From Seison nebaliae (lineage: Eukaryota), in assembly GCA_023231475.1 (NCBI GenBank), contig JALJEE010001255.1, forward strand, positions 1-52,693: a stretch of DNA of 52,693 nucleotides, read 5' to 3'. A program made the translations under genes and the position numbers. Of the stretch, positions 7,501 to 52,296 are shown piece after piece; the stretch's first letter is position 1; each line of letters begins with the position of its first letter. The notes below the pieces were generated by a model. It was not told where the DNA came from. It ran no database searches and worked only from the letters and a program-made list of their open reading frames with translations.

Positions 7501-7573
7501 GCCCGCTTAGCTCAGTCGGTAGAGCGTGGGACTTTTAATCCTAAGGTCCAGGGTTCGAGCCCCTGGGTGGGCG
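7501..7573 (+). tRNA. tRNA-Lys, anticodon UUU
   Basis: 73-nt cloverleaf: acceptor GCCCGCT/GGTGGGC, D arm GCTC..GAGC, anticodon loop CTTTTAA (TTT at 7534-7536), T arm CAGGG-TTCGAGC-CCCTG. Confidence 0.97.
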
Positions 7574-27983: not shown

Positions 27984-28421
27984 TTAGATTTGTATTGAAT
28001 TCATCCGATTGCGACAACACGACGTAATTGGAATGTATTCATTTACTCCTTCCGGGTCTTTATTTTTAGAATGTTCTTCTTCATCTTCTTCTTCTTCCAA
28101 CTTACGAATACCTATTTGCTTGCGGTTAGTTTCTCTCGTCCCGTTGTTGTTGTTATTGATGAAGGAAAGAAATTGGTTTAGTAAATCATTTACATTCTTT
28201 TTAAGCGAATTCCGAATTAATCTACTGAACATTCTGACAGGATAAGATGAGATAAGATTTGTTTTTGAAGAATTCTTCTTCTTCTTTTTGGTTCTCCTTT
28301 TATTATCAATCAAATAAGAGAGAGTGTTGAATGTCGTTGAAATTGACGATTTCCTGTTCACCTTCCCAATGTTGAACATGTTGATCCTAGACATGTGGAT
28401 GGGGATAGATGGAGGAAACAT
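27984..28421 (-). CDS. Possible orphan low-complexity protein (145 aa)
   Basis: ATG-initiated ORF, long for this AT content, with poly-K, poly-N and poly-E runs like other proteins here; no recognisable domain. Confidence 0.3.
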   Translation of the reverse strand: MFPPSIPIHMSRINMFNIGKVNRKSSISTTFNTLSYLIDNKRRTKKKKKNSSKTNLISSYPVRMFSRLIRNSLKKNVNDLLNQFLSFINNNNNGTRETNRKQIGIRKLEEEEDEEEHSKNKDPEGVNEYIPITSCCRNRMNSIQI

Positions 28422-30580: not shown

Positions 30581-33500
30581 ATGATGATGCTCTCTCACAT
30601 TCCTTATAAAATTATCCTCATATTCACCATCATCACCAATAGCATATCAATGAAATCAGGAAATGGTTATGGTTTGAGACATCGTCGAAAAAATTTTCAC
30701 AATTTGAAATTTATCGATTTGTTCAATATCGATTCGAAACGAACTAGCAAACGAGAAGTTAATCAATTGAACGAACAATTACTCGAGTCGACACCGAAAC
30801 TTCGAACTCGATTCCCAAATAATGAAAAGTTCTCCGATTTGAAACTAATGAAAATGAAATCGAAAATCGTTCGATCTGCATTAGATGCAAAACGCATTTC
30901 TCCTAACACTCTCATCATTGTACGGAAACCATCAGACAAGGAAGTTCATTTGAATGACACCTTCTCACTCTCTTGTCATACAATGAGTGCGAGACAATTA
31001 GCGATGCAAAATTGGAAATTGATTACGAAAGATGAAGCCGATGTCCATTGGCTACACAATGACAAACTGGTTATCGATGGGAAAGGTACGGAGAAAATGG
31101 ATAAGAAAAATTCATTCATCAAATATGAAATGTTAAACGATTTAACATTGGTCGTCAATCAAGCGAAATTATCAGATAACGGAAATTACACCTGCGTCAT
31201 CAGTAACGAATGGAAAGTATCGAGTGCTAACGGTAGAGTGCACGTGATGGATGATTTAGAATATTTTGGAAAAAGTACTCAAAACTTCTCCTCAAATATT
31301 CAAATTAATTTCAATTTGAAATTAGTCAAAGCCGAACATGCCATCGAAACGGTGAGGAATCAAGAGAAATTTATCGCTAATCAAAAACAAAAGGAATCGC
31401 CACATTTACAAATCGGTTGGCGATTAAGGAAGATTCGGAAACGATTATATGACGATATATTCAAACGGAAATTCAAATTAAAAAATTTGAAATATTCGAT
31501 CGAGATCAAATTAATTCGAGATGATAATTATGTGATGGAATGGAAAGAATTGATTAGTGGAACGATTCAATCCTTCACAAAATCATTCCAATACGATTAT
31601 ATTCCATTAACGAATTTAGTTCGAGAAGCGAATTCTTTATCGGAAATTAACTTCAAAAATTTGAGCTGTATCGTTCGATTGAAATTCCATCGAATTGATA
31701 TCGTCGATAAGAAGAATTTGAATAGACGTAATTCAATTTATTTAAATGGAAGTAGTGACAATAGTCTCATCTTTCGATTAATTGTGGAAAAAGAGAAAAT
31801 TTTGAAAAAGACAATTCCCATAAAAGAAACTAAAATTTCATCGGAAATCACCGAAACGAAACCGTTAGAAATAAATCAACGGAAAAGTATTTTGGAGAAT
31901 ATCGAAAGTAATTCCTTTTCAAACATTCAATTACATATCACTGAAACGATTGTGAATGATGAACGTAATGACGAAGTGATATTGAAATGGAATATCTTCT
32001 CCGATCAAGAACATTTTGAAAATATTTATAAAAGTGAATGTAAAATTCTCACGAAACAATTATCGGCATTGATCATTTCTTATCAACAAATGGATAACGT
32101 GACAAGTGACACATTAGTCAATTTAGATTATGCTTGGGAACAGGTTGTTGTAATTCTTCCAAAAGATTGGTCAGTTTGCGACCATTTACTAATGGAAAAT
32201 CAAATGAATTCAACACTCGATCGATCGACGGCGTTGAGATTGAAGAAATTACATAAAAATTCAATTTATCGAATCGAAATTATTCTAGTAAAATTAGATA
32301 AGACGAGCGAATCGTTTCCTGACGGAGATTATGAGGAGAGTATTATGGAAACGGATGAAGAATTGAGAATTATTCTTCAATCGAAACCGAGTAATCGAAT
32401 TCTGGTGAAGAATGGAAAATTGTTAAATAATTTAACGTCCGTCCAATGGAATAATGATCGTTCGATGATAATGGAGAAGGAAAGAACATCAGAAAAGTTA
32501 TTTAAAGAGAATTCGAACAAACTGAATTTTGATGCATGGAAGAATCATTTGATGTACGTCATCTTTAGTATCGGAATGTCGTTATTGGGAGTGATGTTAA
32601 TTATGATCGGTGTGATCGGAATCAATCGATATCGGAAAAAGAATCATATGAAAATTATTTGTGATTTAAGTGCAATTCCATCGAAATTATTCGGAATGAA
32701 AAATTTCGATCACCATCATCGTTCTTATAATAATCATCATCACCAGGGACGTCATCAATCAAAGAAACAAAATACTTTCCCTAATAAAATGAATCAAATC
32801 GACGAAAATGGATATCCGAAAGATATTCGACTTAATCATCAGAAATCATCTGATATGAGTTTCATTCAATTACCAAATAATAATCATATGACAAACAATC
32901 GACATAATCATTTACAACAACAACAACAACAACAACAGACTTTACAACCGTTTATTCCGGTTCCGATGAATTATAATGGAACGATAAGAATTCTCGGTTC
33001 GAACACAACGGCAAATACTAATTCGACGAAAGTGTCATTGACAAACTCAAATGGACGTTCATCGAATGATGATAATTCGACGGATAATACAAATCTTTCG
33101 CCAATGCAAACCGACAACAACAACAATAATAACAATAAGTCAATAAATGTTCTTTATCAAACGAATATGAGACAACCCAATCAACAAATACCATTATTAG
33201 TTTGTGCTAATGGTCGTTTTGAACAGCCAACACTAATATATGACAATGCACAGGAAACTAATCAGTTTAATGATAATTCAACGACAACTAATGATATGTC
33301 AACGATACCAATCATTTATTTAACAAACAATCCCCAACAACAACAACAACAACAACAACAGTATAATAATAATTTTAATCAGAATCAAATGATTAATGAT
33401 TCCCATCAAACAACAACAACAACGACACCATTGTTTAAGGGTCATCGAATTGTCAATCAATTTCCAAATGAAACAAATCAACCGATTTTGTATATGAATC

Positions 33501-33826
33501 CGTCGTTCGTTTTTGCCAACAATTCCGAAAATAAAATTGATCCTACAATTAATTCCGATATGTTAGTCAATATGAATATGACAAACGGGAAGATAACAAC
33601 AACGGCGTCCACATCTAATCCATTGAATAATTTGGAATTGACCAATTCCTTATTCAATTCAACAATAACAACATCAATGAATGGAACTTCAATTTCTCCA
33701 TCGACCAACGTCACATCAACTACCTCGACAACCACCAAATTTAATGAGACGAACTTCAAATTTTCAAATTTATTTAACAACAAAAATGATCAACACTCTT
33801 CAACCAACAACAACAACAACAACAAC

Positions 33827-33860
<34 letters not shown>

Positions 33861-33979
33861 GTAATGGTAATTGGTTACCATCAAATTCGTTTTCGAATGA
33901 TATTTTCGATCAAGAAAATTTCTATCATACTCTATCACACCATCAACAACAACAACAACAAAATAAAATTGATATTTAA
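30581..33979 (+). CDS. Single-pass Ig/FN3 cell-surface receptor, possibly Ihog/CDON/BOC-like; intronless
   Basis: Signal peptide, one I-set Ig domain (FSLSC..VHWLHND..DNGNYTCVISN), degenerate FN3 region (HITETIVND..EVILKWNI, LKKLHKNSIYRIEI), TM helix VIFSIGMSLLGVMLIMIGVIGI, long N/Q/T-rich tail. Confidence 0.85.
33805..33871 (+). repeat. Coding (AAC)n(AAT)n microsatellite encoding poly-Asn
   Basis: Trinucleotide runs in frame within the receptor tail. Confidence 0.9.
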
Positions 33980-34062: not shown

Positions 34063-35630
34063 TTATTCATTTTCAATAATTATATTTTTCCTTCGATGAT
34101 ATGAACATTCGCCGTTCTTCACTTGATGGCAACACTTCTTACAAAACTTATCAGTACATCTTTCCGAGAGAGGATTCCCTAGACAATTTCGACATTTCTC
34201 CAAAATTATTTTGTTACTTTTCATCTTGTTCTTATTTGATCGTTTGATCATTCGTTTTAAGCGTTTCAACGAATATTTGCTAAAATCTTGAATCGCCAAT
34301 TGAGACAATTCTTCCGACGGCTCCTTATGTAATTTCCGTTTCATTTTCAGATCGCTGAGAACTCGATCGATTTTTTCCTTTCGAATTTTCTCTTTATCTT
34401 TCTCCTTCATCGTCGGCCTTTCCATCGAACATTGACGATTTTTCGAATGTTTCTCCAGCACATTCACCGCTTCATAATAGACATAGGAAACGTCTTTGTC
34501 CTCCTCAATTTGAGCGTCGAATTCATTCCTAATTTTCTTCATTCCATCCGCCAAATCTTGAACGGTATTGCTCTTGGCAATAATCGATCTCATTTCAATT
34601 GGTTGATGTTCTAAACTGACAAACGACATTTATTAATTAATTACATTTTTTTAAAATTTGAAACACTCGTTGTAATAATTTGAAAAGATGTGCTCGAGTA
34701 ATCGACAATGACGATTTATATGGAATTGCAAAATTGTACAAATATTCTTCTGCCATTGACACTAAATTTAGTTCGTTTTTCGAACATTTTTTAAAAATTT
34801 TGAAATTGTTTAAACTCGATTCTAATTAACATTGGCGTGACAATAAGTGAAAATCATCAAACCTGCAACCATCACACCATCACAACCGGTTTCTTTCAGA
34901 CATCGTTCGATATCATCAAAATATTGAATATTTCCGTTCCCGTACACTGGAATAGATAATGCTTTTCTACCAAATGATTAATGATAAATCAAAAAGTTGA
35001 ACTTGATGGCACTAATATGGTGCCAGTCTGCGAGACCGGTATTCGGTCCTCTTTCTTCTCTCAATCGTCCGTGAACTGTTAACATCTTATTCTCGTTAAA
35101 TTTCCTCTCAAATCGAATTTTAATTTGTTAACTTTAATTCCACAATTCTCCAACATCTTCGCATATTCTACACTTCGTTCCACCGTTTCCAATCGTCGAA
35201 TTTTCGCCGTTACAGGAACTTTCAATGTCTTCGCTGCTTCTGTTAACATCGACCGTACCAATTCGACATTCTCTTGCAAATATGCTCCGTAATTTCCACG
35301 ACGTGCGATTCGTTGAGGACATCCAAGATTGAGGTCTACTCCATCGATATTATATTTTTCCACAATCTTTCCCGCATTCACAAATGTCTCCACATCATTT
35401 GCACAAAATTGCACAATGAGTGGGCGATCGGTGATTCCGAGTGAGTTGGCGAGTTCTTGTTCTCCAATGAACTGTTCGAATTGATATGTTGTATCATCAA
35501 CGAATAATTTCGCATGTATCATCGGCGTGTAGCATAATTGACAATTGTATTTCCTTGAGATTTGGCGCCACGCCAGATCGCTCTGTTCGACCATGGGTGC
35601 GAGAATGAGTCGATATTTGGAGAAATCCAT
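34063..35630 (-). CDS. DUS1L: tRNA-dihydrouridine(16/17) synthase-like, 5 exons
   Basis: [59 protein letters not shown] motifs and a C-terminal Cys/His cluster ([17 protein letters not shown]); four GTT introns. Confidence 0.95.
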
Positions 35631-35723
35631 AAAAATTTAAATTTTTTAAAAATTCTTCTAAACAAATTTCTTTAAATGAAAGAATATAATCAGATAATAA
35701 ATGAATAAAAAAAAGAATAAATT

Positions 35724-37682
35724 TTAGAATGTTAATGAATATCCAAGAATCCAAATAAATTGATAGATTTGGAATATGTATATAGTGGTATGAATATCAG
35801 GAGTATTGATGATTTCATAGAGGAATTGAAGGAAAGACGAATGAAAAGAAATAAGTGGAGAAGATTTGAGGAGAATTTGAATTAAATGAAGAAACAATAA
35901 ATAAGAGATTGGATGAGAAAAGAAGTAGAAGAAACGAGAAATTATTCGTTTTATCCAATTGTCGAATGGCCAAACACATTGGATGAATAACGGTGATAAG
36001 ATCAATAAAAATACAGCCATTCCATAATTGAGAATTGCCAAATTTCCGATAAATAACGATAAAGTGAAAATGGTAAAGAATCTCAAATATTTCCATTCAT
36101 TCAAACCATCCATTTCATTTCCGTTTGACGATTGATATTTCCCTTTTAATTCTACATAGGAATATTGATACATACTCAATATCGGTTGAATAATTATGAC
36201 ATTCAATACCATCAGAATTAGAAAATAAAGTGAATTATTTTCAAAAATTTTCTCATCAATAAAAATTGTAGAAAGAATTGGTTGTAAGATTGATTTGAAT
36301 GAATGAAGAATAATTTGATTATTTAAAAATAATGTCAATATCGTCGCGGTAAAGATGGGTGAGAATAATCGGTAAAAATTGATGAGAGTGGAAGATGGAA
36401 TATTTTCTCTTTTTTCTTTTTCTTCATTTGAATTTTTGAAAAAATTTAAAATTGTTGATGGAAATTGAAGTAGATGAAATAAATCGAATTGATTGAGAAT
36501 TAATTCGTTTCCACTAAACCAAACGAAAAGTAATTGAAGAATTAAGGGAATGAAGAAAAAAGCGATGATAATCATATAATGACCGATTGGAATGAAGAAG
36601 AACGGATGAACGAGAATATAGAAGAAGAAAGATTGATGGAATCGTTCTTGTAAATTATTGACACTCCGCAACAATCCAATGATTCCATCAAGTATCGATT
36701 TGACAGATAACCATTTCCGTTTTGATGGTATTCCTTCGATCGTTATAGCATTGATTCGATTCCGAATAAATGATGAATGACATCCGTCTGGTAATCCTGT
36801 CGCTTGTTTCGTAATTTGTGAGAGATAGTTGAGGAAGAATGATGGATAATATCCGATTTTCACACGATCTCGTCGTTCGACAAAATCATAAAAAAGAGAA
36901 TGATGAATTCGAATTGGAATGTCATTATTGTATGAATTGATGATGTGGAAACTGTTGATCAAATCCAAATTTGGTAATTGTCCATTTGCACCAATATAAT
37001 TCAATTTTAAATGATCGAAAGGAATTTTAAATGATTTTCTCCCAACAATCTCTTTGTGGAAGAAATTCAAAACGATTCCACCTTCGATCGATCCGCAACG
37101 ACTTGATAATTTATTAAAAGTTTCATTCGAATGAATTCCCAAATAAGATTTCAACCAAAAATCCGTTCCATTCATTTCAGATGATGAGAATAAAAATATG
37201 AAATCTTTCGCTAGAAAAACAGCTCGATTCAAATGTTTCATCAGAAATAGACCGATGGAAATTCCATAAATATTTATCTCTTTCTTCTCTCTCCTCATCG
37301 GAATGACAATGACTATCGATTCGGATGAGGCAAATCGTGGCGCTCTCAAAAAACCATAAACATTGACTTTTCTATCATAAATTTGTTCGTAAAACTCGAT
37401 GAAATTTTTCTTCATAAAATTCTTTATCAATTCAAATTGACAATCGATCAATTCGTCGAAATCAGATGAGGAACAAATCGATAATTTATGAGCGAAATCA
37501 TTCAATGAATTATATTCTGATATTTGTGTGTCGACCAGTCCTGGCGTCAACGCATTCTCACTCACATAATTGTGAGAAGCGAAATAAGGTTGACTGATAA
37601 TGAGAAATAATCCCACTCCGATCACATATGACCAGATGGAAAAAAGAATTCGCAATTCAACAAATATTCTCCAGAGATTCAT
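35724..37682 (-). CDS. GPAA1: GPI transamidase subunit GAA1, intronless
   Basis: YVSENALTPG, NVYGFLRAPR..ESIV, LAKDFIFL, GANGQLPNLDLIN, RSVNNLQERFHQSFFFY motifs and multiple C-terminal TM helices. Confidence 0.96.
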   Translation of the reverse strand: MNLWRIFVELRILFSIWSYVIGVGLFLIISQPYFASHNYVSENALTPGLVDTQISEYNSLNDFAHKLSICSSSDFDELIDCQFELIKNFMKKNFIEFYEQIYDRKVNVYGFLRAPRFASSESIVIVIPMRREKKEINIYGISIGLFLMKHLNRAVFLAKDFIFLFSSSEMNGTDFWLKSYLGIHSNETFNKLSSRCGSIEGGIVLNFFHKEIVGRKSFKIPFDHLKLNYIGANGQLPNLDLINSFHIINSYNNDIPIRIHHSLFYDFVERRDRVKIGYYPSFFLNYLSQITKQATGLPDGCHSSFIRNRINAITIEGIPSKRKWLSVKSILDGIIGLLRSVNNLQERFHQSFFFYILVHPFFFIPIGHYMIIIAFFFIPLILQLLFVWFSGNELILNQFDLFHLLQFPSTILNFFKNSNEEKEKRENIPSSTLINFYRLFSPIFTATILTLFLNNQIILHSFKSILQPILSTIFIDEKIFENNSLYFLILMVLNVIIIQPILSMYQYSYVELKGKYQSSNGNEMDGLNEWKYLRFFTIFTLSLFIGNLAILNYGMAVFLLILSPLFIQCVWPFDNWIKRIISRFFYFFSHPISYLLFLHLIQILLKSSPLISFHSSFLQFLYEIINTPDIHTTIYIFQIYQFIWILGYSLTF

Positions 37683-38363
37683 TTTTGAACGAAATTTTAT
37701 AAATTATTCTTCTTTTTTTTAAGAATTTTTTATTCTTATGAAATTTCTACGAAAATTTCTTCGTTTTATTATTAAACTTCATGAACTTAATCTTTAAATG
37801 GATTTTCCTCCATTTTCATTTAATTTATTATCAAATTAATATTTGTTATTCGATTAAGTTCGGCTCGTCTCCACAACGTGAAAGAGCATCTGGAGACGTA
37901 ACATCAACTGGAAATTGGAAGATTGGATTGGAAGAGAATACGAAAATTTTCATTTTTTAAATTTTCAGAAAAGTCAAAGAAATTTCTTAATTTTATTAAA
38001 CGTTTTTTTCTTGTCTTTCATCAAATTTCATACCTATTTGTTAAGAATGAGAATAAATTTCGAGAGAATCATGAAAAATTAATGGAAGTCTATTGTTCCT
38101 CACTTACGTCTTATGAGACAGCTCACAATTCAATAGATGTCTTTAATATGAGTGTTCGAGTTGTGTAATTTGGTTTAAGAAATAATTTTAGAGAGAAATA
38201 AAATTGTGAGGAAAAGTTTATGAATTTTTATCATCATCAATGCACCAGCTGCTATTGAATATACTGGAAATAGTTTAATTTATTTTGTGTTATTAATAAA
38301 AAATTGTGAGGCAAAAATCTCTCCATTCCAATCAACTGAGAGAAGAGTTCAAATAAAAATTTA

Positions 38364-41300
38364 ATGAGAATGAAGTTCCAACATTTCTTTCTTCTTTCCC
38401 CACAAATAAATTCCTACAAATGAAACGTGTTTATAGATTGTTGTACATGAGAATTTATAACATTGAGAAACAGAAATTATCTTACTACATCTTATGGATA
38501 TCGATTGGAATATTTTATTCCATCGTATTCGCTGTCGGATATATCGGTTTTTTGTCTTTTAGAAATTTATTTGAATTCTGTGTTTGTAGCTCCACCAATG
38601 TTATTCTCACGATCGTATAACGAATCGAATATGTATCCAAAACCGTTGAATAATTTCAGTGTTTATATTTTATTTTGAAATTAATTTGAATTTGGTAATG
38701 TTCTTAGGGTCCGTTCACTGTCAAATCACCGTTAGTATCGATATTTAATCAATATATGTGGTGCTATCTCGAATTCGATTTGGATGGGAAAAATAGTTTA
38801 TTATTTTTTCATTTAATTCAATTATCAAATTTTCATTATTATAGTAACCGAAAATGAATCACATTCGATAAATATTTCTTATCAATTAGTTGGAGTTCAA
38901 GAACTTCCTGACTCGTCTCATGATCATGCAACGTCATTACAAACTGATAAAGTATCAAATCGAGCTATGCGAGACGAAAATAATGAAACAGATCGATTTA
39001 TGGAAGGAAAGGAAAATAAAAATTCTTATGAATCGGTCGATACAATAACGAATTATTCTCATGATAATGATCATTATGAGAAGAGTGTCCATACGTCAAT
39101 AATCTCCCAAATCAACATAGAACGTCATCGTTTAACGGTTGGTCATTTTATTTAAAAATCGGTCAAATGTTCGTGTTGAACGTTGAAAAGTGAAAATAAA
39201 TGAATTTTCATTCGTTGAGGAAAGTGAAAAGTCGAGAGAGATGAAAGTGATGCAATATCACTGGGCGAAAAGGAGATTGATCTTTAAATGATTATGAAAA
39301 GGAGATGAATTTTTGAATGATTATGAAAGAAGAGATGAATATTTATATAATGATAGGAGAGGGGATGAGTATGATTATGAAAAGGAGAATAGATCGATTA
39401 TCAAAATTGATGATGATGATGATGATGATGTTTCGCGTAGACAAAAAATAATTGTCCGTTCAAAATATTTTCGATATGGAAATTATTGTTCGGAGAGAAC
39501 ATATAAAGAAATATCTCGTTGATGAAAATCGATTGAATCGATTGAATGCGTTGCATTCATTTTCCTGCAATACAGAAACGGCAATCCGTCATTATTTCTA
39601 TTTTCGCAAGCAGCCAACTGTGACCATAATGGTCAGTCAACTATATGAGAGAACGTCATCATTTGATTTATTCTTATTCTTATCTTCAACATTTCTTTTT
39701 CAATTCAATACAGCGACTCATCATTATCTCATAAAAAACTTTTATTTCGTAACTAATTCTCAAATTACAACTTGAATATTTCAATCGACTATGAGCTTCT
39801 ACAGCATGAGTAGCGATAGTGATATGTACCAATATGGTGGAGGCAATCCGGGGGGCGGATATTCCAGTGGTGGAGGGGGCGCACCCGTAGCACAACAAGC
39901 AGCACCCGCTGCTATGCCTGTGGCGAGAAGTACCGGTGGTTACGCTCCGGCTGGATACAATGCCGGTGCCACTTATGGATATACACAAGGTGGAAGTTAT
40001 GGTGTGGTTCCTGCTAGACGTCAATTGGCACCAAGGCGACAAATGGTCCGTGCTAGAACACCACCACCAATAGTCCAAACTAGACGTGTCCGTGCCCCAA
40101 CACCACCACCACAATTAGTGGAACGTGTGGTAGTTCAACCATCTCCACGTGTCATTTTAAACATTGTGGAAGAACGACCAACAACTCCTCCTCCACAAAT
40201 CCGAAATAGAACTGTTCGAGAACCGGCGAAAGGACCACCAATTGTACGACGACAAGTCGTTCGTGTTCCACCTCGTGGCAATTATCAATATGGCGGTTAT
40301 CAAGAAGCACAAGGAGAAGCGTATGGTTCTGGATCATATTCCGATTCTTACAGTAGCGACGATATGGGAGGTGCTTATGGTGGCGGCTACGAAGTTAGTA
40401 GCGGTTATCAACAACAACAACAACCTCAACAACCGTATGGAGCTGGTTATGGCGGTTATGGTGGGCAATCGTATGGATATGGTGGGGGATATGGTGGAGG
40501 ATATCAATAAAGAAATGAAAATGAAAATTATTGACTGAATTTTTAACGATAATTTGTTGAACAATACAAATATTCGAATGATACTTTCCATGTACATTTG
40601 ATGTTGATTTCATTCTTTTTTTTCCTGTTTGTATTTTCTTTTATTGTTCATGTGATATTCGTCTAGATTAGCACATCGCTTCCTTTCCTTCGAAAACATA
40701 TAATTTAAACATACAATCCAATCACTTGATTGAACATTTTTTTTATTGTTGCTTCATCTCTTATGGATTACTGACGAATGTTTTTCATCGAATATTTTTA
40801 TATGTTTCCTCCCCATTATTTTCATTCAATGTTCTAATAAATGGCAAATACTTCATTCCATTTCTTCTTCACTTCTCTGCTCAATATTCTCTTGACGAAT
40901 TTGACTTTGATAGTTGAATGTTTGTTTTCATCTATTTGAAGGTTGTCTAGTTCATTCTTATCTTTCAATTTCATCGAACTCAACCTCTTCTTACTTATAA
41001 CTTATAAGTTATAACCACCTTAACCTTACTTAAGATATATCTTAAGTAATTCAAATTAGTGTAAATTTTTATTTACTTTTCAATATTTTTGTTGATTTTA
41101 AATGACGTCAGAAAGTTTAAGTTTTTTTTAATTTCTTTCAGTTTTTTAATTATCTAACGTGCGAAACTATCGAGATTGTTTTTATGTTATTCTTTTATTA
41201 TTCAAATATTCTCGATTTCAACTGATGATTCGGAATTCTGAAAGGAAATGAAAAAGTTTCAATTATTTTATGATTCTAATTCTCAAGTGTCACCATTTAC

Positions 41301-44300
41301 TTCGATCGATATGATGAGGAGAGTAGATGAGTTTGACATTAGGAGTGTGAATAGATAGATGGATAATTTTCCATAGGACGACGTTCTTTGATGAAAACCG
41401 TTAAAGTTAGGAAGTGGATGGATGAAATGAAAGAGAAAGTTGATATAAAAGGGAAAAGGAGAGAATCTATTAAAATTGCTAATCATCAAAAAAGAACGAT
41501 GACCTAGTCATGCTAAGAATGTTTGTACGTGAAATACGGAGTTGTCAGTTTCGTATGAACGAGTTGAATGAGAGAGAATAATTATTGTCATTTGAAACGA
41601 GGCCAGTGCACGCTACAAAGCATCTTTATCAATTTGGTAACTAGGCCATCGCCTAGTTGGGAAGATGCATCTGATCAATCAAGCAAATCAATAATTGAAA
41701 ACATCTATAAATATCGAATTGAATCCCACAGTTTTTCATTACAATCCTTTAAACATAAACCCATCCACATCTTAGTTGCCATATTCCCCGTTCCACAAGC
41801 AAAATGAGAAAATTGTATGGAAATCACGCTTCATCCACTTCCGGACAAATGGACCATCGAACTGTTCAAGGAATCTCTTCGAAACAACAGAGAAATGCGG
41901 CGGCCGCCGCCGCTCAAGCAGCTGCAACTAACCAAATGATGATGCAGGCAAGCATGATGCAACCGATGATGATGCAGCAACCACAAATGCAATGTGCTAA
42001 TGGTCAATGTTCGATAATGCCACAAATGATGCCACAGCAGAATGCATGTGCATTTGGTGCATGTCCCATGCCATTTGGTCAATCGCCGATGTTGAACGCG
42101 GTAGCACAAGGAGTTCCACGTGCCGAAGTTGGTGCTGACATGAGCGGAGCTGCCAGTGCCGCAATTCCATTGACAACGCCATTTGCACTTCAACAACAAG
42201 CACAACAACAAGTACAACAGCAAGCACAACAACAAGCATCACAAATGCAACAACAGCCACAGTGGAATAATTCGCAATGGATGATGAATAATGGAATGTC
42301 AGGCTTTTATTAGACGGAAACGAAACGAGACAATTCTCACAATTTCCCTGATAATAATTATAATAATAATAATAATAATAATACAATGAACGAATACACA
42401 AATACGAGTAGAATAGAATAATTATTATTTAAACTGATTAATTACTAATTGATTGTATATTATGTTGAATTATCCTGCTTTTTTAACTCTTTTTTTCATT
42501 TCATTTGAAAATTCATTTATGAATATGTGAGACATGAATGGAAGACATATCAACGTCTTTTATTATTTAAATCTTTCTCTATCGTTTTTTCCTGATCGTT
42601 TCTCTTCATCTGTTCCTTCTTTTTTTTTTCAATAAATTGTGAATTATAATTCTCATTTTCCCCTCTTTTTTATTTATGAAAATCAAAACAACTCAACCAT
42701 CATCCAAATGAATGACATCCACTGTCTAATGATGATAATGATTCACTTTTGACATGTCATACTCATTCTTATGAGTCGAATAAAACACCTTAGCTCGACA
42801 CACCACATAGATGATGAGGAAGAGTAAAAATGCAATCACAACTGATGTAATAATTATTCCTACCAACATTATCCATAGCGCATGATTGGCAATCGGCTTC
42901 ACATATTCTCGAACGACAATCATTCGTTTCTCAACATCTGTCACATTGCTTCCTTTCATCATCGCACTCAACGGTTGTTGAACTATCGTTTTGGGTTGAG
43001 GTATCTCAATTCGGATATGTCCCTTCAATTCACTCGATTCTGGATTACCACTCAACTTTTTCTTGATGATTCTATGAAAGTATTTCTCAATATTCTTCTC
43101 GATCTTCTTCCGTCTCTTATCTAACGTTATCGAATGTTCGTCATTCAGATTAAAGTTGCCTTCGTAATGATCCAACATAAAGGCGATCAATTCATTTTTA
43201 TTCTTCATTCGTTCCTTCAACTTCTCCTCACAATACTTATAAACATTTTTCCTGAATTCTGATTCATGTTTTTTAAATTTTTTCAATTCGTGACTCGACA
43301 ATTTATCGGGATAGTCGGAGAGGATCTCGTTGGAAAGCAAGACACATATGGATCGCTGTCGTGCCCACTGATTCGTGTCTATATTGCTCTTTATACTTTG
43401 TCCGATCTCCATTCTCAACTCCTTCTCGTTATCCTCTATAATCTCCACACCTCTCTTACGTGACGGTTCCAGCTCATAATTGTTATCGTTCCCCATGGGA
43501 TAATAAGTAAAGGCGAATTTAAAACAGAAAACTATAATAATACGGTGAACACTATTCATGATTTGTAATGACAAAAGATTTTTTGAAATTGTAAAATGAA
43601 ATAGAAAATAGTTGAAAACTAAAATAGAATCGAAAACGTCACTAATTTATATATAAATTTCTCTTTCATTATTATTTCGTTCATTAGAATCATCGAATTC
43701 TACTCTTCAAATTGAACTCACTAACTTACAACTATTATTTGTGTCGAGTCAATTTGACGGAAATCAATTCACAAAATCATGAAGCACAACCAGCGAGACA
43801 CATTCAATTCAAGTCATTCCACATTAAAGTTCAATTTTCTTCTTTCTAATTATTTCACATTATTTTCATTCCAGTTTCAATATTATACAAAAAGTTTCAC
43901 CGAATTCGAAATCGCCTATCGTATAGCCATAATCATTATAACTTTCATCGTTCTGGTTATCATTCTTTTAATTTAATTTTAATCTTATTTTTTTTACTTT
44001 AAAATTAGTGTCTCTATTGTAATAATATTCAACAATTTCCTTTACTAATTTGGAATTATGAACAGAAATGGATTCTCTTCCTTCTCGCCATGCAAATCAT
44101 TGACGCAAGTTCAAATTTTTTCATTATTCGCTCATCTTTAATATCTCTTCATCGCAATTTCAGATCCTTTATATGAATTAAAATTCATTTATCATCATCA
44201 TTTCATCGCGATTCTTGATCAACTGTCCCATCAACTTTTCTTATTCTCTATGGGAATGTTCTGGCTTACACTACTCCATTCCTTTATGAATGACGATCGT

Positions 44301-45100
44301 CGATTTATCACCTTCTACTTTCCCAAACTACTTCTCGCCACTTTCATGTTTCTCGTCATTTTTCTTTTGCAAGAACAAAACCTGAAATCTTACCATAAAT
44401 CATTCTCTTCCATCAATATGTATACATCTTCCTTATCTTCATGGCGAGCCACCATCGTTAACATTTATTTATCATTCATTTACCTTCTTTTTATCTTTTA
44501 TTTCATTTTAGTTATTGATCATTTTGGTGATCACTTCTATTATTATTTATGTAACATGGATATTTATTCTAACCATCATCAATATACGCTATGCAAGAAA
44601 TTTCAAATATACCAGTTATTTTTTTATTAATTTATTTTTATTTATTTCTTCTCATCCAAAAGATAAACGAGTAAAATGGGCAATTGGTACATTTTCCATA
44701 TTCTCCTTGAACATTATCATTTATTTATTATTCCATTACGAATATTTCGTGCAATCATTGATCGGATTTACACTTCCAACATTCTATTTCGAGTCGTGTG
44801 TTCAATTCCTCTTTCCAAGAGCGTCCACGAATTTCCTCGTTATTCTTCTCGTCTACATCTATTCGCCATGCAAAACACCAAAAGGTTTCACCTTAATTTT
44901 TTTCCTCTCCTTCTAAATATGTCTAAGCTAAGGAATATCTTCGAGAAGAGATTTGTATGGATCCATTGGAATGGACAAAAAATCAATTAGATCAAATGTA
45001 TCCACTAGTGAGGGAAGACGATGATGACGACGAAACATCGATTGTTACTAAACTTTGTGATGATTCGGATAAAGAATATGACTTTGGGAAGAATAATTAA
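38364..45100 (+). CDS. TMEM181: Transmembrane protein 181 (Wntless-related), about 12 exons including a 4550-nt intron (39138-43687)
   Basis: N-part MRIYNIEKQK..VGYI and GPFTVKSPLVSIFNQYMW; C-part FTEFEIAYR, WNYEQKW, FYFPKLLL, VYIYSP and acidic tail. The first mini-exon (38364-38374) is less certain. Confidence 0.85.
39285..39392. repeat. Degenerate minisatellite (ATGATTATGAAAAGGAGA core)
   Basis: Three recognisable copies of the core inside the large TMEM181 intron. Confidence 0.6.
39791..40510 (+). CDS. Gly/Tyr-flanked, Pro/Arg/Val-core protein (239 aa), nested in TMEM181 intron
   Basis: Intact ATG..TAA ORF, much more GC-rich than surroundings; GGY-rich ends and core repeats RARTPPP, RAPTPPP, RPTTPPP; no signal peptide. 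Confidence 0.92.
   Translation: MSFYSMSSDSDMYQYGGGNPGGGYSSGGGGAPVAQQAAPAAMPVARSTGGYAPAGYNAGATYGYTQGGSYGVVPARRQLAPRRQMVRARTPPPIVQTRRVRAPTPPPQLVERVVVQPSPRVILNIVEERPTTPPPQIRNRTVREPAKGPPIVRRQVVRVPPRGNYQYGGYQEAQGEAYGSGSYSDSYSSDDMGGAYGGGYEVSSGYQQQQQPQQPYGAGYGGYGGQSYGYGGGYGGGYQ
41706..41713 (+). promoter_or_regulatory. TATA box for the Gln/Met-rich gene
   Basis: TATAAATA followed about 25 nt later by initiator-like ACAGTT, ~100 nt upstream of ATG 41804. Confidence 0.55.
41804..42313 (+). CDS. Gln/Met/Ala-rich low-complexity protein (169 aa), nested in TMEM181 intron
   Basis: Intact ORF with elevated GC, own TATA box, two CxxGxC motifs (CANGQC, CAFGAC), C-terminal SGFY. Confidence 0.85.
   Translation: MRKLYGNHASSTSGQMDHRTVQGISSKQQRNAAAAAAQAAATNQMMMQASMMQPMMMQQPQMQCANGQCSIMPQMMPQQNACAFGACPMPFGQSPMLNAVAQGVPRAEVGADMSGAASAAIPLTTPFALQQQAQQQVQQQAQQQASQMQQQPQWNNSQWMMNNGMSGFY
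42726..43559 (-). CDS. Uncharacterised type I membrane protein, antisense-nested in TMEM181 intron
   Basis: Intronless ORF; hydrophobic N-terminus (IIIVFCFKFAF), charged helical middle, TM helix ALWIMLVGIIITSVVIAFLLFLIIYVVC, short tail. First ATG at 43559. Confidence 0.85.
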   Translation of the reverse strand: MNSVHRIIIVFCFKFAFTYYPMGNDNNYELEPSRKRGVEIIEDNEKELRMEIGQSIKSNIDTNQWARQRSICVLLSNEILSDYPDKLSSHELKKFKKHESEFRKNVYKYCEEKLKERMKNKNELIAFMLDHYEGNFNLNDEHSITLDKRRKKIEKNIEKYFHRIIKKKLSGNPESSELKGHIRIEIPQPKTIVQQPLSAMMKGSNVTDVEKRMIVVREYVKPIANHALWIMLVGIIITSVVIAFLLFLIIYVVCRAKVFYSTHKNEYDMSKVNHYHH

Positions 45101-45534
45101 AATTTTTCTTCTTTCTTTTTCCAAATATTCCAATAAATTCTTAAACTAAATCAAACAGTTTAAACAAATTTTCTTTCATTTTCAATAATTGGATCGTGAA
45201 ATTCTGATAAAAACTACTAAATCTTAATTCTTCTAAAGTTCAAATGTATTCTATCGGTTTTAGATGGATGAGTATTTAGAAAATATTTTTGAAGCTTACT
45301 ATTTTGAAAACGTGCCAAATTCAAAAATAATTTTAAGAAATTGTTAAAAATTATTTTTGTAAAATTTTTCCTATTTTCAAAATGTAATTCACTCCTCAAA
45401 ATCACTTCCTCATTAGATAACGTTAATTGAGAATAAATGGGACGGACGTGTTTACTATAAGTAAATTGAAAAGAATTCGTTTCGTTGAGATTGGAAAGCG
45501 AAAAGAAATGACTATAATTGAGATGTAACTTTAA

Positions 45535-46974
45535 ATGAAAAGAATTCCAACTCATATCGATCGTTATCGTAATTTACGAGCAATTATTAAATCGTTGAAA
45601 AGTGCCACATCGGTGTATGGAATACGGGACCGTTTAATTGAATTGAACAACATTTTGTTACAGAATGAACATAATCGATTTGTCGCACAAAATTCGAATA
45701 TTATCGGTTGTTTGAGTCATTTGCAAAATGTGAATTCATATCGATTGGATAACATCGAGATAAGTTATGAGATAAACAAATCTCTAGCACTCTTGGGCTT
45801 AACTCAACCCAAAAATAAGAAGAGTGTAAATGTCCTTTCATTGGATGGTGGTGGTACTCGTGGAGTGATCAGCATTCAAATTTTGAAGGAATTGCAACAT
45901 CGATTAGATGGACGGAAGATCGAAGATGTCTTTGATATCGTTTGTGGCGTTAGTACTGGAGCTATTATAGTTGCACTAAAATTTGCTAACGGACTTAATT
46001 TAGATGAGTGTGAATCAGCTTATACGGAATTTGGTAAGAAGATTTTTGTACGTGATCGAATGAGAAGTTTAAATAATATGTTGTGGACACAAGCTTATTA
46101 TGATTCAAATAATTATGAGCAAATCCTTCAAGAAATGTTTGGTGAGAAAACGATGTTACAAACATCGAAATGTCACAATTCTCCCAGATTAGCTTTGTCG
46201 TCTACGAAAATTTTGGGCCGATCAGCCGAACCATTTCTCTTCCGAAATTACGCCATTTCTCCTTCGTCATCCGTCGAGAATTGGTATGATGGTACATGTA
46301 ACGCGAAAATATGGCAAGCAATTCGAGCGGCAACCGCCGCGCCGATTTATTTCGAAGGATATTCATTCAATTCAAATTATTTTGTTGATGGTGGAATCCT
46401 TTATAATAATCCTTGTTCTTTGGCAATTTTCGAATGTAAAAAATTGTGGCCGACATATCCGATCGGTTGTGTCGTATCAATCGGTACTGGACGTCCACCT
46501 TTGACCAGACCGAAAGATAAATTAAATGAAACTTTATTAAGTCGAACTCTGGGAACAGTTTCTGGTATAATTTATAGTGCGACAAATACGGAGAATGTTC
46601 ATTCTATTCTTCAGGATTTGTTGCCGAGTGAAACTTATTATCGTTTCAATCCGATTATGTCGAAAGATTTCCAATTGGATGATATCGAAGAATTGGAAAA
46701 GATGAAGACGGAAGCGATTGAATATATCAATTTGAATAAAATGAAATTTGATATTTTATTTTATTCGTTGGAGCGAAGAAGTCTTTGGAATCTTCTCAAT
46801 TTCTCCGAAGATCTCGTCAATACTTTACATTCGACTTTGTTCAAATTCTCGTTATTTATGCTCGATTATCATACACCGACGACTTTACGAGGATTCTTAA
46901 CTGCCACAAAGAATAGTTTGGTTTTCGTTTTAACGAAATTAAAGAATTTTATTGATTTGTTGAGAAAGCAATGA
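45535..46974 (+). CDS. PNPLA8: Calcium-independent phospholipase A2-gamma (patatin family), intronless
   Basis: LSLDGGGTRG glycine loop, GVSTG nucleophile, DGG motif, PFLFRNY, WQAIRAATAAP, YYRFNP. Confidence 0.93.
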   Translation: MKRIPTHIDRYRNLRAIIKSLKSATSVYGIRDRLIELNNILLQNEHNRFVAQNSNIIGCLSHLQNVNSYRLDNIEISYEINKSLALLGLTQPKNKKSVNVLSLDGGGTRGVISIQILKELQHRLDGRKIEDVFDIVCGVSTGAIIVALKFANGLNLDECESAYTEFGKKIFVRDRMRSLNNMLWTQAYYDSNNYEQILQEMFGEKTMLQTSKCHNSPRLALSSTKILGRSAEPFLFRNYAISPSSSVENWYDGTCNAKIWQAIRAATAAPIYFEGYSFNSNYFVDGGILYNNPCSLAIFECKKLWPTYPIGCVVSIGTGRPPLTRPKDKLNETLLSRTLGTVSGIIYSATNTENVHSILQDLLPSETYYRFNPIMSKDFQLDDIEELEKMKTEAIEYINLNKMKFDILFYSLERRSLWNLLNFSEDLVNTLHSTLFKFSLFMLDYHTPTTLRGFLTATKNSLVFVLTKLKNFIDLLRKQ

Positions 46975-47084
46975 ATACGTATGAATTGGTTGATTGATCG
47001 ATGAGAAAAGGAAAAGAAATACGGAAAATAATGGAGAACAAAATTAGATTTATTTTAAAATATAAAATTTCTTTTAATCAATTT

Positions 47085-47964
47085 TCAATCTTCGATCTCT
47101 TTGATTAAGTTCGATAATCGATTGAGTGCCTTCCCAATCTTCTCTTCTTTCACATTGATATCTTCACCGTTCGTCATTTCATTATTTTCCAACTCATTCT
47201 CATTCAAATCATTAACAAGTGATTGTTCATCTTTCACTAATAAATTGACATCTTCATCTGTTAATGGAACGAAAATTCCTAATTGATTCTTTAAAAATAA
47301 TCGATAATTGATCAAATCAATCGAAAATCGATAAAAATTAAAACTTTATTCTTCAATAATTGTGGACTGGGACGATAGAGTTGTGAATCGACTTTTGATA
47401 ATGATGATTTCTTTCTGATATTTCTTATTACATTATCATCATCATCATTGTTATCAATAGTATTCTCATCATCATCATCATCATCATCTTCATCGTTTTC
47501 AATTTTTTCTTTTTTCGTTTTTAAAAGTTTCATTTGATTGACAATATCGTCATAGTAATATAGTCGTTTCATTCCGTTAATGTTCGCTTCCACTTCCTCC
47601 TCATTGATCATTGAATTTAACATTTTGTCCGTCTTCACATCTCGATCTAATTCTTCTTGTAACTTCTTCAATTTCAATTCGTCGTTCAACACATTGTAGA
47701 AACTTCTCAGTTTAACTAAATAATTGAAATCTTCTACAAAATAATTTATTAATTAATTAAATTACTTTAAAATTATTTGGAATAATTAGAAACTTGTAAT
47801 ATTTTCGATTTCTTCAATTTCTTTCTCGTTTTCCACGATCGGCATTAACGATCGATATGGTGAGAAGCTGTCTGTTGTCAATGTTTTATTGGGGAGAAGG
47901 AAAGATAAGTGCTGTACTAACGTATGAAATGGAGAAGTGTCAAGAATACAGCGAACTGTCTCAT
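47085..47964 (-). CDS. Acidic secreted protein with dibasic sites, 4 exons
   Basis: Three GTT introns join MRQFAVFLTLLHFIHS (signal peptide), FSPYRSLMPIVENEKE.., and ORFs 47312-47692 and 47085-47315 in frame. Confidence 0.75.
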
Positions 47965-49805: not shown

Positions 49806-50447
49806 ATGGACTCAAATCGAATAATTCTTGTTAACAATAATAATAATAATCGACAATCAGTCAATCAACTTCGTTATTCAACCGGACGAAGTAACTTCAA
49901 TCAATTGATGAATGAAATCATCTTAGCGAATGAGAAAGTGTATGCAAATCGATTTTTTAATCCAAATTTATTTTCCTTTCAATTTGAACCGTCTGGTGAG
50001 AAGATTGGCGAAAATATCATAAGAAATGGAAATTCTCCTCTCATGCAATTGAAGTATAATGAAGAAAGTTGTAATTGTGAGAATGGATGTAAATATGTTC
50101 CATTCCTATCAACAACAAACAAGTCATTGTCATGCAAACAACTGGATATTTTTATTTACAACGAATTAATTCGACAGAATTTAGGATGTGCATTCTGCAG
50201 GAAAATCTTGACTGAAGTGCGCAAAAATGAATTATTCGCTCTCGATTTACCAATTCACAGAGATTTATTACGACAAATGCTCAACATTCATAACACTGTC
50301 GATCGAGTCACCAACAATGCGTCCTGTCCATATCTGCGAAGTCTTCATTGCAAAATTTGTGGGGCGACTGGCGACTCAGCACATACATTGAAATATTGTC
50401 CAGCTATTCGTGATAACATTCCTCCTTTACAATTGGCCAAACGATAA
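49806..50447 (+). CDS. nanos: Nanos-family CCHC zinc-finger RNA-binding protein, intronless
   Basis: CAFC..H..CPYLRSLHCKICGATGDSAHTLKYCP is the nanos double CCHC signature; first ATG at 49806. Confidence 0.93.
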   Translation: MDSNRIILVNNNNNNRQSVNQLRYSTGRSNFNQLMNEIILANEKVYANRFFNPNLFSFQFEPSGEKIGENIIRNGNSPLMQLKYNEESCNCENGCKYVPFLSTTNKSLSCKQLDIFIYNELIRQNLGCAFCRKILTEVRKNELFALDLPIHRDLLRQMLNIHNTVDRVTNNASCPYLRSLHCKICGATGDSAHTLKYCPAIRDNIPPLQLAKR

Positions 50448-50944
50448 AAGAATTCGATTACTTCCAACAAATTTATTCATTTCCAAAAAACTTTTCCATT
50501 TCCATAAACACTTTCCTTCTTTCATCATTCCAAATTTCTCCCTTCAATCCATCCATATGATTTTCTTCAAAAATTTCTTCATCATCATTTTTCCCAACAA
50601 ATTCAAATTTCTAACCGAATAATTCTTTTATTCGAAATTCTCTCAATTTATCGTTCGTCACCGATTTTCCTTTCTCCACTTCCAAACCGTTTATAGAAAT
50701 ATGATCATCGATCAATTGTATAATAATAAATCGTTTCAATTCATCGATTTCCTTTAATTTAAATAAAAGTTTTCAAATTTTATATAATTATTTTTCTGCA
50801 TTTCTAACTTGAATACTATCAAAAATTGATTTGATACATTTGTTCGCTTCCACACAAAATGCATAAGAAATTAAATTTATTATTAAATCTGAAATGAAAA
50901 AAAAAATATAAAAATTTCAAAAAAAAAATTTTGTAAAATTTTTA

Positions 50945-51031
50945 GAAAGGAAAAATTGTAAAACTTTCAGGAAAGTAAAACTATAAAAATTTCAGGAAAG
51001 AAAAATTGTAAAAATTTCAAGAAGGAAAAAT
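50945..51031. repeat. ~25-bp AT-rich tandem repeat, about 3.5 copies
   Basis: AAAAATTGTAAAAATTTCAGGAAAG-like unit repeated with few substitutions. Confidence 0.8.
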
Positions 51032-51084
51032 ACAATAATTTATGGTCAGAAAAGTTATAAAAATTTTAAAACAGTAAAAAAATA

Positions 51085-51381
51085 TTAACAATAAATTTGA
51101 TTTTTGTGATTGTGTCGAACTGAAAGTAAATTTTTCCAAAACATAATTTTCTTCTCCTCTTCCAAAGAACTGTTTTCCATATAATTCACGATGAAATGAA
51201 TCGATTCTAAACATTTCGCTTCATTTTCCACAATTTTACTTAACGGTCTTTTGTCCCGATTGAATATGGAAATAATTTTCTCGCGTCTTCTTCCAAAACA
51301 TTCATCGAGGATAAACTGGACATCTTTCTGGTTATCTTCTATACATCTCACTTTCAATAGATTATCCATTCTTTTTTCCAT
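51085..51381 (-). CDS. Possible small orphan protein or element-derived ORF (98 aa)
   Basis: ATG-initiated ORF with protein-like charged composition; no recognisable domain. Confidence 0.3.
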   Translation of the reverse strand: MEKRMDNLLKVRCIEDNQKDVQFILDECFGRRREKIISIFNRDKRPLSKIVENEAKCLESIHFIVNYMENSSLEEEKKIMFWKNLLSVRHNHKNQIYC

Positions 51382-51506
51382 TTCAAGAGATTTCTTAAAT
51401 TTTACAATTAATTAAGTTTCCAATTTACAAAATGACATTTTAAAGTTATTCATAAAAATTGTTAAGTTAACGCTTCAAATTCATAAATTTTCGAACGTCT
51501 TAATAA

Positions 51507-51990
51507 TTTTTTTTTTTTTTTTTTTTATTAATCATGTCAAATCCCCGCGGGGTAAATTATAGAGAAAAAAGATAACTCTTTAAAGGAGTTATTTGAAAGA
51601 AGGTTCCTACCGCCATCAATATACTCTTTGAGTGATTCAGGAACAAAAGCACTAATATCAAAGTTCGATATTAGTGATAACGAATCGTCGAGAGAAGACG
51701 AAAAGTCAATGGAATAGTATCGGAAGAAAAATTGAAGAGGCGACGAGAAGCTCTCACATTGTGTATACGTTGGAACGGGAAGAGCCGATCCGGAAACCGA
51801 ATCAACTACTTTCAGGTACCTCTGTGCCAGGAGTAGCGGCAGAGGAGTCAATTCGCATATCGTGAACATAAAAGCTCTATTGAAAGGCTTGTGACAACCG
51901 AGCATCATCCGAACTGTTCTATTATAAGTTCGATCAAGGCATCGTAATGACTTTTCTGTATTCGAGATAGAAACTGGCAGCCTAGACAAA
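51507..51990 (-). mobile_element. 5'-truncated LINE copy with a 20-nt A-tail
   Basis: LRCLDRTYNRTVRMMLGCHKPFNRAFMFTICELTPLPLLLAQRYLK resembles LINE ORF2 post-RT sequence; stop at 51537, then AATAAA and A20 (T-run 51507-51526); homologous to 1-354. The 5' boundary is approximate. Confidence 0.7.
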
Positions 51991-52296
51991 ATTGTCCAGA
52001 CAATATTAAAAAATATGACATTGTCGGACATTAAATTGTCATATTCAAAAGATGAGAAATTTAATTGAAAAAAAACACAAGTACTTATCTTTGAACGGTT
52101 TCATGTATATTTGAACTTCTACATGATGAACTTCTACGTAACATAACGATTCCTTCAATTGAAAATTTCCCATTCTCATCTATTACTTGTCAACATTTTC
52201 TTCCTCTGTTAATATTCAATTCTGTTTGGACTATTTAAATTAAATTTCTTCTCGTCCATAAAAATAAAGTTACTCCGCGGTGGTAGTTTTTCTGTT

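What the first reader, a model, noticed from the sequence alone, without database searches (positions are those of the whole stretch)
39138..43687. Three complete genes nested in one 4.55-kb TMEM181 intron, two on the host strand
Seen: TMEM181 coding stops at ..ERHRLT|gtt (39138) and resumes in phase at tag|NHRILLF (43688). Between lie intact genes 39791-40510 (+), 41804-42313 (+) and 42726-43559 (-). Nearly all other introns here are under 100 nt. Same-strand nested genes bring their own AATAAA signals (e.g. 40506, 42631) that the host transcript must read through. A normal-distance acceptor (aag 39190) is followed at once by TGA and AATAAA, which would give a truncated TMEM181. Inference: a regulated nested cassette, alternative termination, or a host gene joined by recursive or trans-splicing.
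Basis: partly seen in the sequence, partly recalled or inferred. Interest (0 to 1): 0.75.

Follow-up and report, generated by a model that had tools for sequence, protein, structure and literature searches.

The report
Three genes inside rotifer TMEM181 gene
In the rotifer Seison nebaliae, three other genes sit in the middle of the gene for the membrane protein TMEM181, most likely inside one unusually long intron, an arrangement common in animals, though no transcript joining the two halves has been seen and a true split into two genes remains possible.

Summary
Observation confirmed. The window is a Seison nebaliae contig. TMEM181 coding sequence stops at 39137 and resumes in phase at 43688; the public annotation lists the halves as two proteins. 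The three genes between look real: A has bdelloid homologues, C has an unspliced transcript, and all three match a diverged second genome. Best reading (about 0.6): one cis-spliced 4,550-nt intron. Its donor is GTT, like 14 of 15 RNA-supported donors; its acceptor ranks 1st-2nd of 189 AGs and sits at an ancestral intron position. Weak point: the direct join lacks about 9 residues, including a conserved cysteine; an 11-codon ATG-started stretch (43558-43590) fills the gap but has no acceptor, so gene fission keeps about 0.2. No host-strand RNA could be seen. Multi-gene, same-strand nesting is well known in animals. Side finding: near-exclusive GTT donors in this animal; the scan noted GTT donors before in protist genomes, not this locus.

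The parts
38370..39137 (+). TMEM181 5' half: coding exons 38370-38374 (or ATG 38420), 38437-38546, 38590-38660, 38708-38795, 38845-39137; first membrane segment and front part of the GOLD domain, with a roughly 59-residue lineage-specific insert
   Evidence: Exact mapping of database protein P0008 (SNEBB_004239) with four GTT-AG introns; Pfam TMEM181_GOLD 1-55; profile alignment
39138..43687 (+). Inferred 4,550-nt intron, GTT donor, TAG acceptor, phase 0
   Evidence: Donor fits the local GTT rule (21st percentile of modelled donors); acceptor rank 1 and 2 of 189 AGs; splicing itself not observed
39138..39200 (+). Read-through end of the 5' half: five more codons, TAA at 39153-39155, weak AG at 39190, AATAAA at 39195
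   Evidence: Sequence; P0008 ends here; acceptor rank 60 and 55 of 189
39791..40510 (+). Gene A: intronless ORF, 239 aa, Gly/Tyr/Gln-rich ends around a Pro/Arg/Val-rich core; uncharacterised family also found in bdelloid rotifers; likely structural (inferred from composition)
   Evidence: 4 homologues at E<=1e-3, best named from Didymodactylos carnosus, 47% over 110 aa; second-genome piece 39953-40395, 74 differences in 443; no Pfam hit
40914..40947 (+). Ratchet-like AG|GTT site at 40941 (possible recursive splice point; weak lead)
   Evidence: Acceptor rank 7 and 5 of 189; 3 such sites in the whole window, 0.13 expected per 4.55 kb strand
41804..42313 (+). Gene B: intronless ORF, 169 aa, Gln/Met/Ala-rich orphan, TATA-like box at 41706
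   Evidence: ORF and coding model; second-genome pieces 41930-42072 (18 differences in 143) and 42242-42300 (4 in 59); TATA; no usable family or Atlas hit; expression not seen
42346..42391 (.). (AAT)n repeat, the one place in the interval that no listed contig bridges
   Evidence: Contigs 36500-42345 and 42392-47421 in runs of two studies; the repeat is skipped by the tool
42527..43612 (-). Gene C: unspliced transcript; ORF 43559-42726, 277 aa, hydrophobic N-terminus, one C-terminal membrane helix; orphan, likely single-pass membrane protein
   Evidence: Transcript row M1086; hydropathy; database protein from the second Met; second-genome pieces 42728-42949 and 43474-43635; fold low confidence except the membrane helix
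43558..43590 (+). Annotated 11-codon first exon of the 3' half (ATG start, one Cys, GTA donor); real exon, relic exon or predictor artefact; lies antisense in gene C's 5' UTR
   Evidence: P0001 mapping; no AG in its open frame; donor at 5th percentile; fills the profile gap in register but rank 35 of 173 in a local null
43640..43687 (.). Acceptor region of TMEM181 (CTAAT branch-like motif 43642-43646, pyrimidine tract, TAG) that also holds a two-way TATA box at about 43646-43657, some 40 nt upstream of gene C's transcript start
   Evidence: Sequence and motif scan; transcript end at 43612; dual use is inferred
43688..45100 (+). TMEM181 3' half: exons 43688-43828, 43875-43955, 44009-44108, 44164-44456, 44512-44614, 44663-44884, 44928-45100; rest of the GOLD domain and seven membrane helices
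   Evidence: P0001 (SNEBB_004243) mapping with six GTT-AG introns; Pfam PF06664; 30 synonymous against 5 non-synonymous codons among the 40 listed second-genome differences

Best explanation
TMEM181 is most likely one gene whose pre-mRNA is spliced in cis across a 4,550-nt intron (39138-43687), and three independent, intronless genes lie in that stretch. Shown: the two halves are complementary parts of one TMEM181 in the right order; the splice signals are canonical for this genome and in phase; the three inner genes are conserved and C is transcribed. Inferred: the cassette entered the old intron in the cysteine loop of the GOLD domain; the donor now used lies 4-5 codons upstream of the ancestral one, so the 559-aa product would lack both loop cysteines (the second is Asn in the sequence). 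Inferred: the inner genes have their own TATA promoters and poly(A) sites; the host polymerase would read through those sites often enough, as at same-strand nested genes of flies, helped by a strong acceptor, intronless inner genes and probably different expression in tissue or time. Some early termination near 39195 or at gene A's signals is likely as leakage. One recursive step at 40941 is possible (about 0.15 within this model).
For: Complementary halves, no overlap. Donor 39138 is GTT: 14 of 15 RNA-supported donors on this contig, 10 of 10 short TMEM181 introns and 42 of 48 donor-blind modelled introns are GTT. Acceptor 43687 ranks 1 of 189 and 2 of 189 with a cleaner training set. In 3 of the animal loci read base by base (L004, L013, L014) a phase-0 intron lies in the same loop, one codon before the second Cys; a fourth, L006, has it elsewhere. 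The second Cys is Asn in Seison, so losing the first too is coherent: of 63 homologues 60 keep both, 2 lack both, 1 has one. The rival first exon has a poor GTA donor and lies in gene C's transcribed 5' UTR. Seison transcripts on other contigs skip 878, 1,240, 1,796 and 3,140 nt (some are exon-skipping isoforms). The 3' half is under purifying selection. Literature passages: 461 of 833 Drosophila nested pairs are in complex nests, 71.3% are on opposite strands, and 71.5% of same-strand inner genes are intronless (PMC5174743); small animal genomes hold more nested genes (PMC8527503).
Against: No transcript crossing the junction was seen. The direct join deletes about 9 profile columns (134-142) including a Cys kept in 60 of 63 homologues, at the end of a long strand and a turn in a homologue's model. 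The 11-codon stretch restores the register, puts a Cys on the conserved column, ends in EI like three monogonont-type homologues, and gives 436 against 419 matched states and about 7 bits more over the full length. The donor is 4-5 codons off the ancestral position. 4,550 nt is longer than any gap in the 7 of 400 table parts read (maximum 3,140). The public annotation has two genes. Other good acceptors lie inside the interval (41775, 42878, 41008, 39713) and must be passed over.
Confidence: 0.62

Rival explanations
1. Gene fission. The cassette split TMEM181 into two genes: a 194-aa membrane-anchored half-GOLD protein ending at TAA 39153 and AATAAA 39195, and a 381-aa seven-helix protein starting at ATG 43558. 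The two would rebuild the GOLD domain by binding each other.
For: This is the public annotation. The ATG falls on the profile column right after the last residue of the 5' half, with the Cys in register. No AG acceptor precedes this exon, so if it is used it must be a first exon. AATAAA lies 40 nt after the 5' stop. 43474-43635 is conserved without gaps in the second genome.
Against: The exon scores no better than random peptides in two local nulls (31.9 bits against 31.8 for the direct join and a null mean of 32.4; rank 35 of 173, 853 of 3,815 window donors as good). Its donor is GTA (1 of 15 RNA-supported donors; 5th percentile). Its promoter would have to lie inside gene C's coding region; no + strand TATA was found between 41706 and 43648. 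Conservation there is explained by gene C's 5' UTR. The annotation of Sarcoptes scabiei once split TMEM181 nearby and later joined it, so such splits can be annotation errors.
Confidence: 0.2
2. One protein, but made in an unusual way: the 11-codon exon is included through a non-AG acceptor (for example TG at 43559-43560), or the two halves are separate pre-mRNAs joined by trans-splicing.
For: Including the exon gives the cleanest full-length alignment. Trans-splicing would avoid reading through two same-strand poly(A) sites.
Against: All 18 RNA-supported introns on this contig end in AG. No long complementary arms join the two intron ends; the 22 inverted pairs are 14-35 nt and mostly AT-rich. 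No promoter evidence for a separate 3' precursor.
Confidence: 0.08
3. Regulated alternative termination as the main function: splicing to AG 39190 or read-through gives a purposeful truncated TMEM181 alongside the full-length form.
For: AG, TGA and AATAAA are there, 53 nt from the donor, a typical intron length.
Against: The acceptor is weaker than 93% of modelled acceptors; AATAAA occurs 1.9-2.7 times per kb in this window and in 2 of 58 short introns. The product would differ from plain read-through by five residues only.
Confidence: 0.05
4. Artefact or dead gene: a misjoin at the (AAT)n repeat, or a broken TMEM181 relic.
For: No listed contig bridges 42346-42391. The assembly is from short reads (PMC8351084, sections read).
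Against: Contigs from two studies match 36500-42345 and 42392-47421 with no differences, so each half is tied to its neighbouring inner genes; the records run 35 and 38 letters into the 46-nt repeat, which implies an overlap (inferred). A chance misjoin would not place the two halves in order on one strand. The 3' half shows 30 synonymous against 5 non-synonymous codon changes.
Confidence: 0.05

Closest known systems
Nested intronic genes of animals, including complex and same-strand nests (Drosophila, PMC5174743; ctenophore Hormiphora californensis, PMC8527503; mouse and human, PMC11694760; passages read)
   Same: Several short, intronless genes inside one intron of a multi-exon host; mixed orientation; a compact genome.
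   Different: Host splicing is not shown here. The intron would be about 90 times the median length in a genome whose donors carry almost no information beyond GTT, and gene C's TATA box lies in the host's acceptor tract.
TMEM181, GOST family (GOLD domain plus seven membrane helices; PMC9711517, passages read)
   Same: Domain order, PF06664 and PF21885 matches, best named hits are TMEM181, profile finds Wntless in the PDB.
   Different: About 25-30% identity; a 59-residue insert in the GOLD hairpin; the conserved Cys pair is broken; the gene is interrupted in mid-GOLD by three genes.
Annotation-split TMEM181 of Sarcoptes scabiei (160 aa + 402 aa, later 598 aa)
   Same: Two adjacent annotated proteins dividing TMEM181 in the GOLD domain about a dozen residues before the first Cys.
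   Different: There a joined model exists; whether genes lie between its halves was not checked.
Recursive splicing at AG|GT ratchet points (Drosophila long introns; recalled, not read here)
   Same: One AG|GTT with a median-strength acceptor lies between genes A and B.
   Different: Known cases are mostly in far longer introns; one site here has a chance of about 0.12.

Membership tests
Nested intronic genes | Inner genes lie wholly between two consecutive coding parts of one gene | tested here: met
   Complementary halves flank all three ORFs
Nested intronic genes | Host exons are joined in one mature transcript across the inner genes | not testable with these tools
   No RNA holder listed; host-strand rows lie beyond the cut of the transcript table
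Nested intronic genes | Host intron has usable, in-phase splice sites | tested here: met
   GTT donor, top-ranked TAG acceptor, phase 0-0
Nested intronic genes | Inner units are real, independent genes | tested here: met
   A: homologues and second-genome match; C: transcript and second-genome match; B: second-genome match and TATA only
TMEM181 (GOST) | Wntless-like seven-helix domain PF06664 | tested here: met
   97.7 bits, cut-off 28.3
TMEM181 (GOST) | TMEM181 GOLD domain PF21885 | tested here: inconclusive
   5' half 20.1 bits, below the cut-off of 27.5, positions 1-55 of 111; the 3' half alone has no hit; own profile aligns both parts
TMEM181 (GOST) | Cys pair in the GOLD loop (typical, 60 of 63 homologues; not universal) | tested here: not met
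   Second Cys is Asn; first is absent in the direct join, present only in the 11-codon stretch
Gene fission | 3' half has its own start and promoter | tested here: inconclusive
   ATG 43558 in register but poor donor and no upstream TATA; no RNA
Gene fission | 5' half has its own 3' end | tested here: inconclusive
   Stop and AATAAA present, at background frequency
Recursive splicing | AG|GT ratchet point used as an intermediate | tested here: inconclusive
   One motif at 40941, 0.13 expected; use not testable
Trans-splicing of gene halves | Separate precursors, often with pairing arms | tested here: inconclusive
   No long arms between the intron ends; separate precursors not testable

The most novel reading that the evidence does not exclude
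An insertion of three genes has cut a conserved animal membrane protein in the middle of its luminal GOLD beta-sandwich, and Seison keeps both halves as separate genes, the second started from inside an antisense neighbour, whose products reassemble into TMEM181.
Probability: 0.2. Interest if true: 0.75.

Novelty: new member of a known kind. Interest (0 to 1): 0.35.

Why it matters
If the best reading holds, this is one more complex nest, useful mainly as a warning that the Seison annotation splits genes at long introns, which can inflate the gene loss reported for this lineage, and as a test case of how a spliceosome that sees little more than GTT at donors finds a partner 4.5 kb away past two same-strand genes. 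If fission holds, it would be a natural split of a GOST-family protein within a folded domain. One alignment of RNA reads separates the two. No paper on this locus, on nested genes in Seison or on its donor consensus turned up in searches (the library lacks most subscription papers).

Tried and rejected
No whole genome is held, so a second TMEM181 copy elsewhere could not be excluded; the protein searches returned one Seison-named record per half. No RNA holder listed; runs X6 and X7 laid nothing: no evidence either way. Transcript table: the TMEM181 intron patterns gave 0 hits; the held text ends at row 19,906 and its 15 rows for this contig are all minus-strand genes, so the blank says nothing on TMEM181, A or B. 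Hidden canonical micro-exon: 75 AG-GT phase 0-0 candidates of 3-16 codons, best 33.9 bits against 31.8 for the direct join, none restoring the Cys loop; other phases and a 2-codon candidate at 43605-43610 were not scored. A modelled intron in gene C (43637-43552) is contradicted by the unspliced transcript. Rotifer synteny: the one metagenome scan gave 15 loci, none recognisably rotifer. Atlas: best score 0.85 for gene C, nothing for B. Gene C fold: mean pLDDT 51, not searched. Fold search of the homologue model did not run. Rfam: only a tRNA at 7501-7573. No complex prediction was sent: halves of a split domain tend to pass under either model. Table 3 showed 40 of 253 differences, none in 43474-43635, so the codon pattern of the candidate exon in the second genome is unknown. 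Earlier scan notes near this place: none.
Full report
Source. The window is a whole 52,693-nt contig. Two searches with TMEM181 exons each returned one protein, both named Seison nebaliae (Rotifera, Seisonidea): SNEBB_004239 (P0008, 194 aa) and SNEBB_004243 (P0001, 381 aa). The three locus numbers between them fit the three ORFs between (inference). No whole genome is held.

Observation. P0008 maps to 38370-39155 with four introns and ends by reading five codons past the GTT at 39138; P0001 maps to 43558-45100, with an 11-codon first exon and seven introns. The halves are complementary: TMEM181_GOLD positions 1-55 in the first, the Wntless-like membrane domain in the second. A search of 1.8 billion representatives gave 136 hits; 6 of the 10 looked up carry names, all TMEM181-like or Wnt-binding-factor-like membrane proteins or unnamed-function records of animals. 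A profile from the 63 hits of 440-545 aa aligns both halves in order.

Assembly. Contigs from runs of two studies cover 36500-42345 and 42392-47421 with no differences; the 46 nt between are an (AAT)n repeat that the tool skips, and no listed piece bridges it. A misjoin that happened to put the halves in order is unlikely (inference).

The inner genes. A has four homologues, the best from a bdelloid rotifer (47% over 110 aa). C is covered by one unspliced transcript, 42527-43612, in the transcript table of PMC8351084; it has a hydrophobic start and one membrane helix. B is an orphan with a TATA-like box. Low-depth contigs 80-87% alike, a second diverged genome in the same runs, match parts of A, B, C and both TMEM181 halves (tables cut). 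Among the 40 of 253 differences shown, all in the 3' half, 30 are at third positions; 30 codons change silently and 5 do not. These pieces are too short to show synteny over the interval. PMC8351084 describes two lineages in this species (sections 6 and 9 read).

Splice code. Donors here are GTT: 14 of 15 distinct RNA-supported donors, 10 of 10 short TMEM181 introns, 42 of 48 introns from a model given no donor preference (five gene models without recognisable homology or with already-counted introns were left out of that count; over all models 63 of 77), against 878 of 2,288 for any GT. AATAAA is seen 5 times where the window mean predicts 10.5. In 7 of 400 parts of the transcript table, gaps of 878, 1,240, 1,796 and 3,140 nt occur on other contigs, so kilobase splicing exists in Seison; none reached 4.5 kb.

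The junction problem. Sixty of 63 homologues have two cysteines in this loop. In a confident model of a rotifer-like homologue (pLDDT 87) they lie at the end of a long strand and across the following turn. In loci L004, L013 and L014 a phase-0 intron lies 2-3 codons after the first Cys and one codon before the second; L006 has it six codons before the first Cys. The Seison acceptor is at that old position within a codon, and the second Cys is Asn. The direct join lacks about nine profile columns with the first Cys. The annotated 11 codons fill them in register (436 against 419 matched states; 221 against 214 bits), but in two local nulls they do no better than random peptides, have no AG in their open frame, and lie antisense in gene C's 5' UTR, 40 nt from a TATA box that sits in the TMEM181 acceptor tract. 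They are therefore an artefact, a relic exon, or the first exon of a separate gene. No canonical phase 0-0 micro-exon restores the loop (75 tested).

Mechanism. I put 0.62 on one cis-spliced intron giving a 559-aa TMEM181 without the Cys pair, 0.2 on fission, 0.08 on a non-AG acceptor or trans-splicing, 0.05 each on purposeful truncation and on artefact or decay. The odds rest on the donor type, the acceptor's strength and position, the joint loss of both cysteines, the awkward promoter that fission needs, and how common nests are. No pairing arms were found; one ratchet-like site at 40941 has a chance near 0.12. What would settle it, host-strand RNA, was not visible: the table is cut before those rows.

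Known biology. Passages read: in Drosophila 461 of 833 nested pairs are in complex nests of up to 13 genes, 71.3% are on opposite strands, and same-strand inner genes are mostly intronless (PMC5174743); Hormiphora has 2,357 nested genes, many parallel, and smaller animal genomes have more (PMC8527503); in mammals both orientations are about equally common (PMC11694760); TMEM181 belongs to the GOST family (PMC9711517). PMC10125929 (passages) added nothing. Of PMC8351084 I saw the outline, passages, sections 6 and 9, a search of supplement 1 and seven parts plus searches of supplement 2, whose unseen remainder bears directly on the main claim. Searches showed no paper on this locus.

Verdict. 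A real, correctly described arrangement; most likely a new example of a known kind, unproven at the RNA level, with a one-in-five chance of a far more interesting gene fission. Interest 0.35.

Noticed in passing
whole window: Donors are almost always GTT with no downstream consensus (14 of 15 RNA-supported; 52 of 58 modelled), unusual for an animal; one search showed no paper on it. Possibly more interesting than the finding itself.
   Followed up: partly
window 43640-43687: One 48-nt stretch serves as TMEM181 branch point and pyrimidine tract on + and holds the likely TATA box of gene C on -.
   Followed up: partly
window 42527-42650: Gene C's transcript ends at 42527 and would overlap gene B's 3' UTR if B uses AATAAA 42631.
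   Followed up: no
window 49806-50447 and 50132-51459: An intronless nanos-type gene (zf-nanos) is overlapped at its 3' end by a spliced minus-strand transcript.
   Followed up: no
window 16550-30580: About 14 kb with almost no recognisable genes in an otherwise dense contig, upstream of an intronless Ig-domain membrane protein gene (30587-33979); two of the three ratchet-like AG|GTT sites lie here (22847 +, 22918 -).
   Followed up: partly
window 1-336 and 51540-52100: Near-identical peptide stretches at both contig ends suggest a repeat or mobile-element fragment; no Pfam hit.
   Followed up: no
window 35630-35724: GPAA1 stop and DUS1-like start lie 94 nt apart on the same strand; separate transcripts are listed.
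   Followed up: no
window 39267-39390: Three to four imperfect 29-nt purine-rich repeats near the start of the long intron.
   Followed up: no
window 38900-39100: About 59 extra acidic, low-complexity residues in the GOLD hairpin of Seison TMEM181.
   Followed up: partly
window 7501-7573: A tRNA gene.
   Followed up: no
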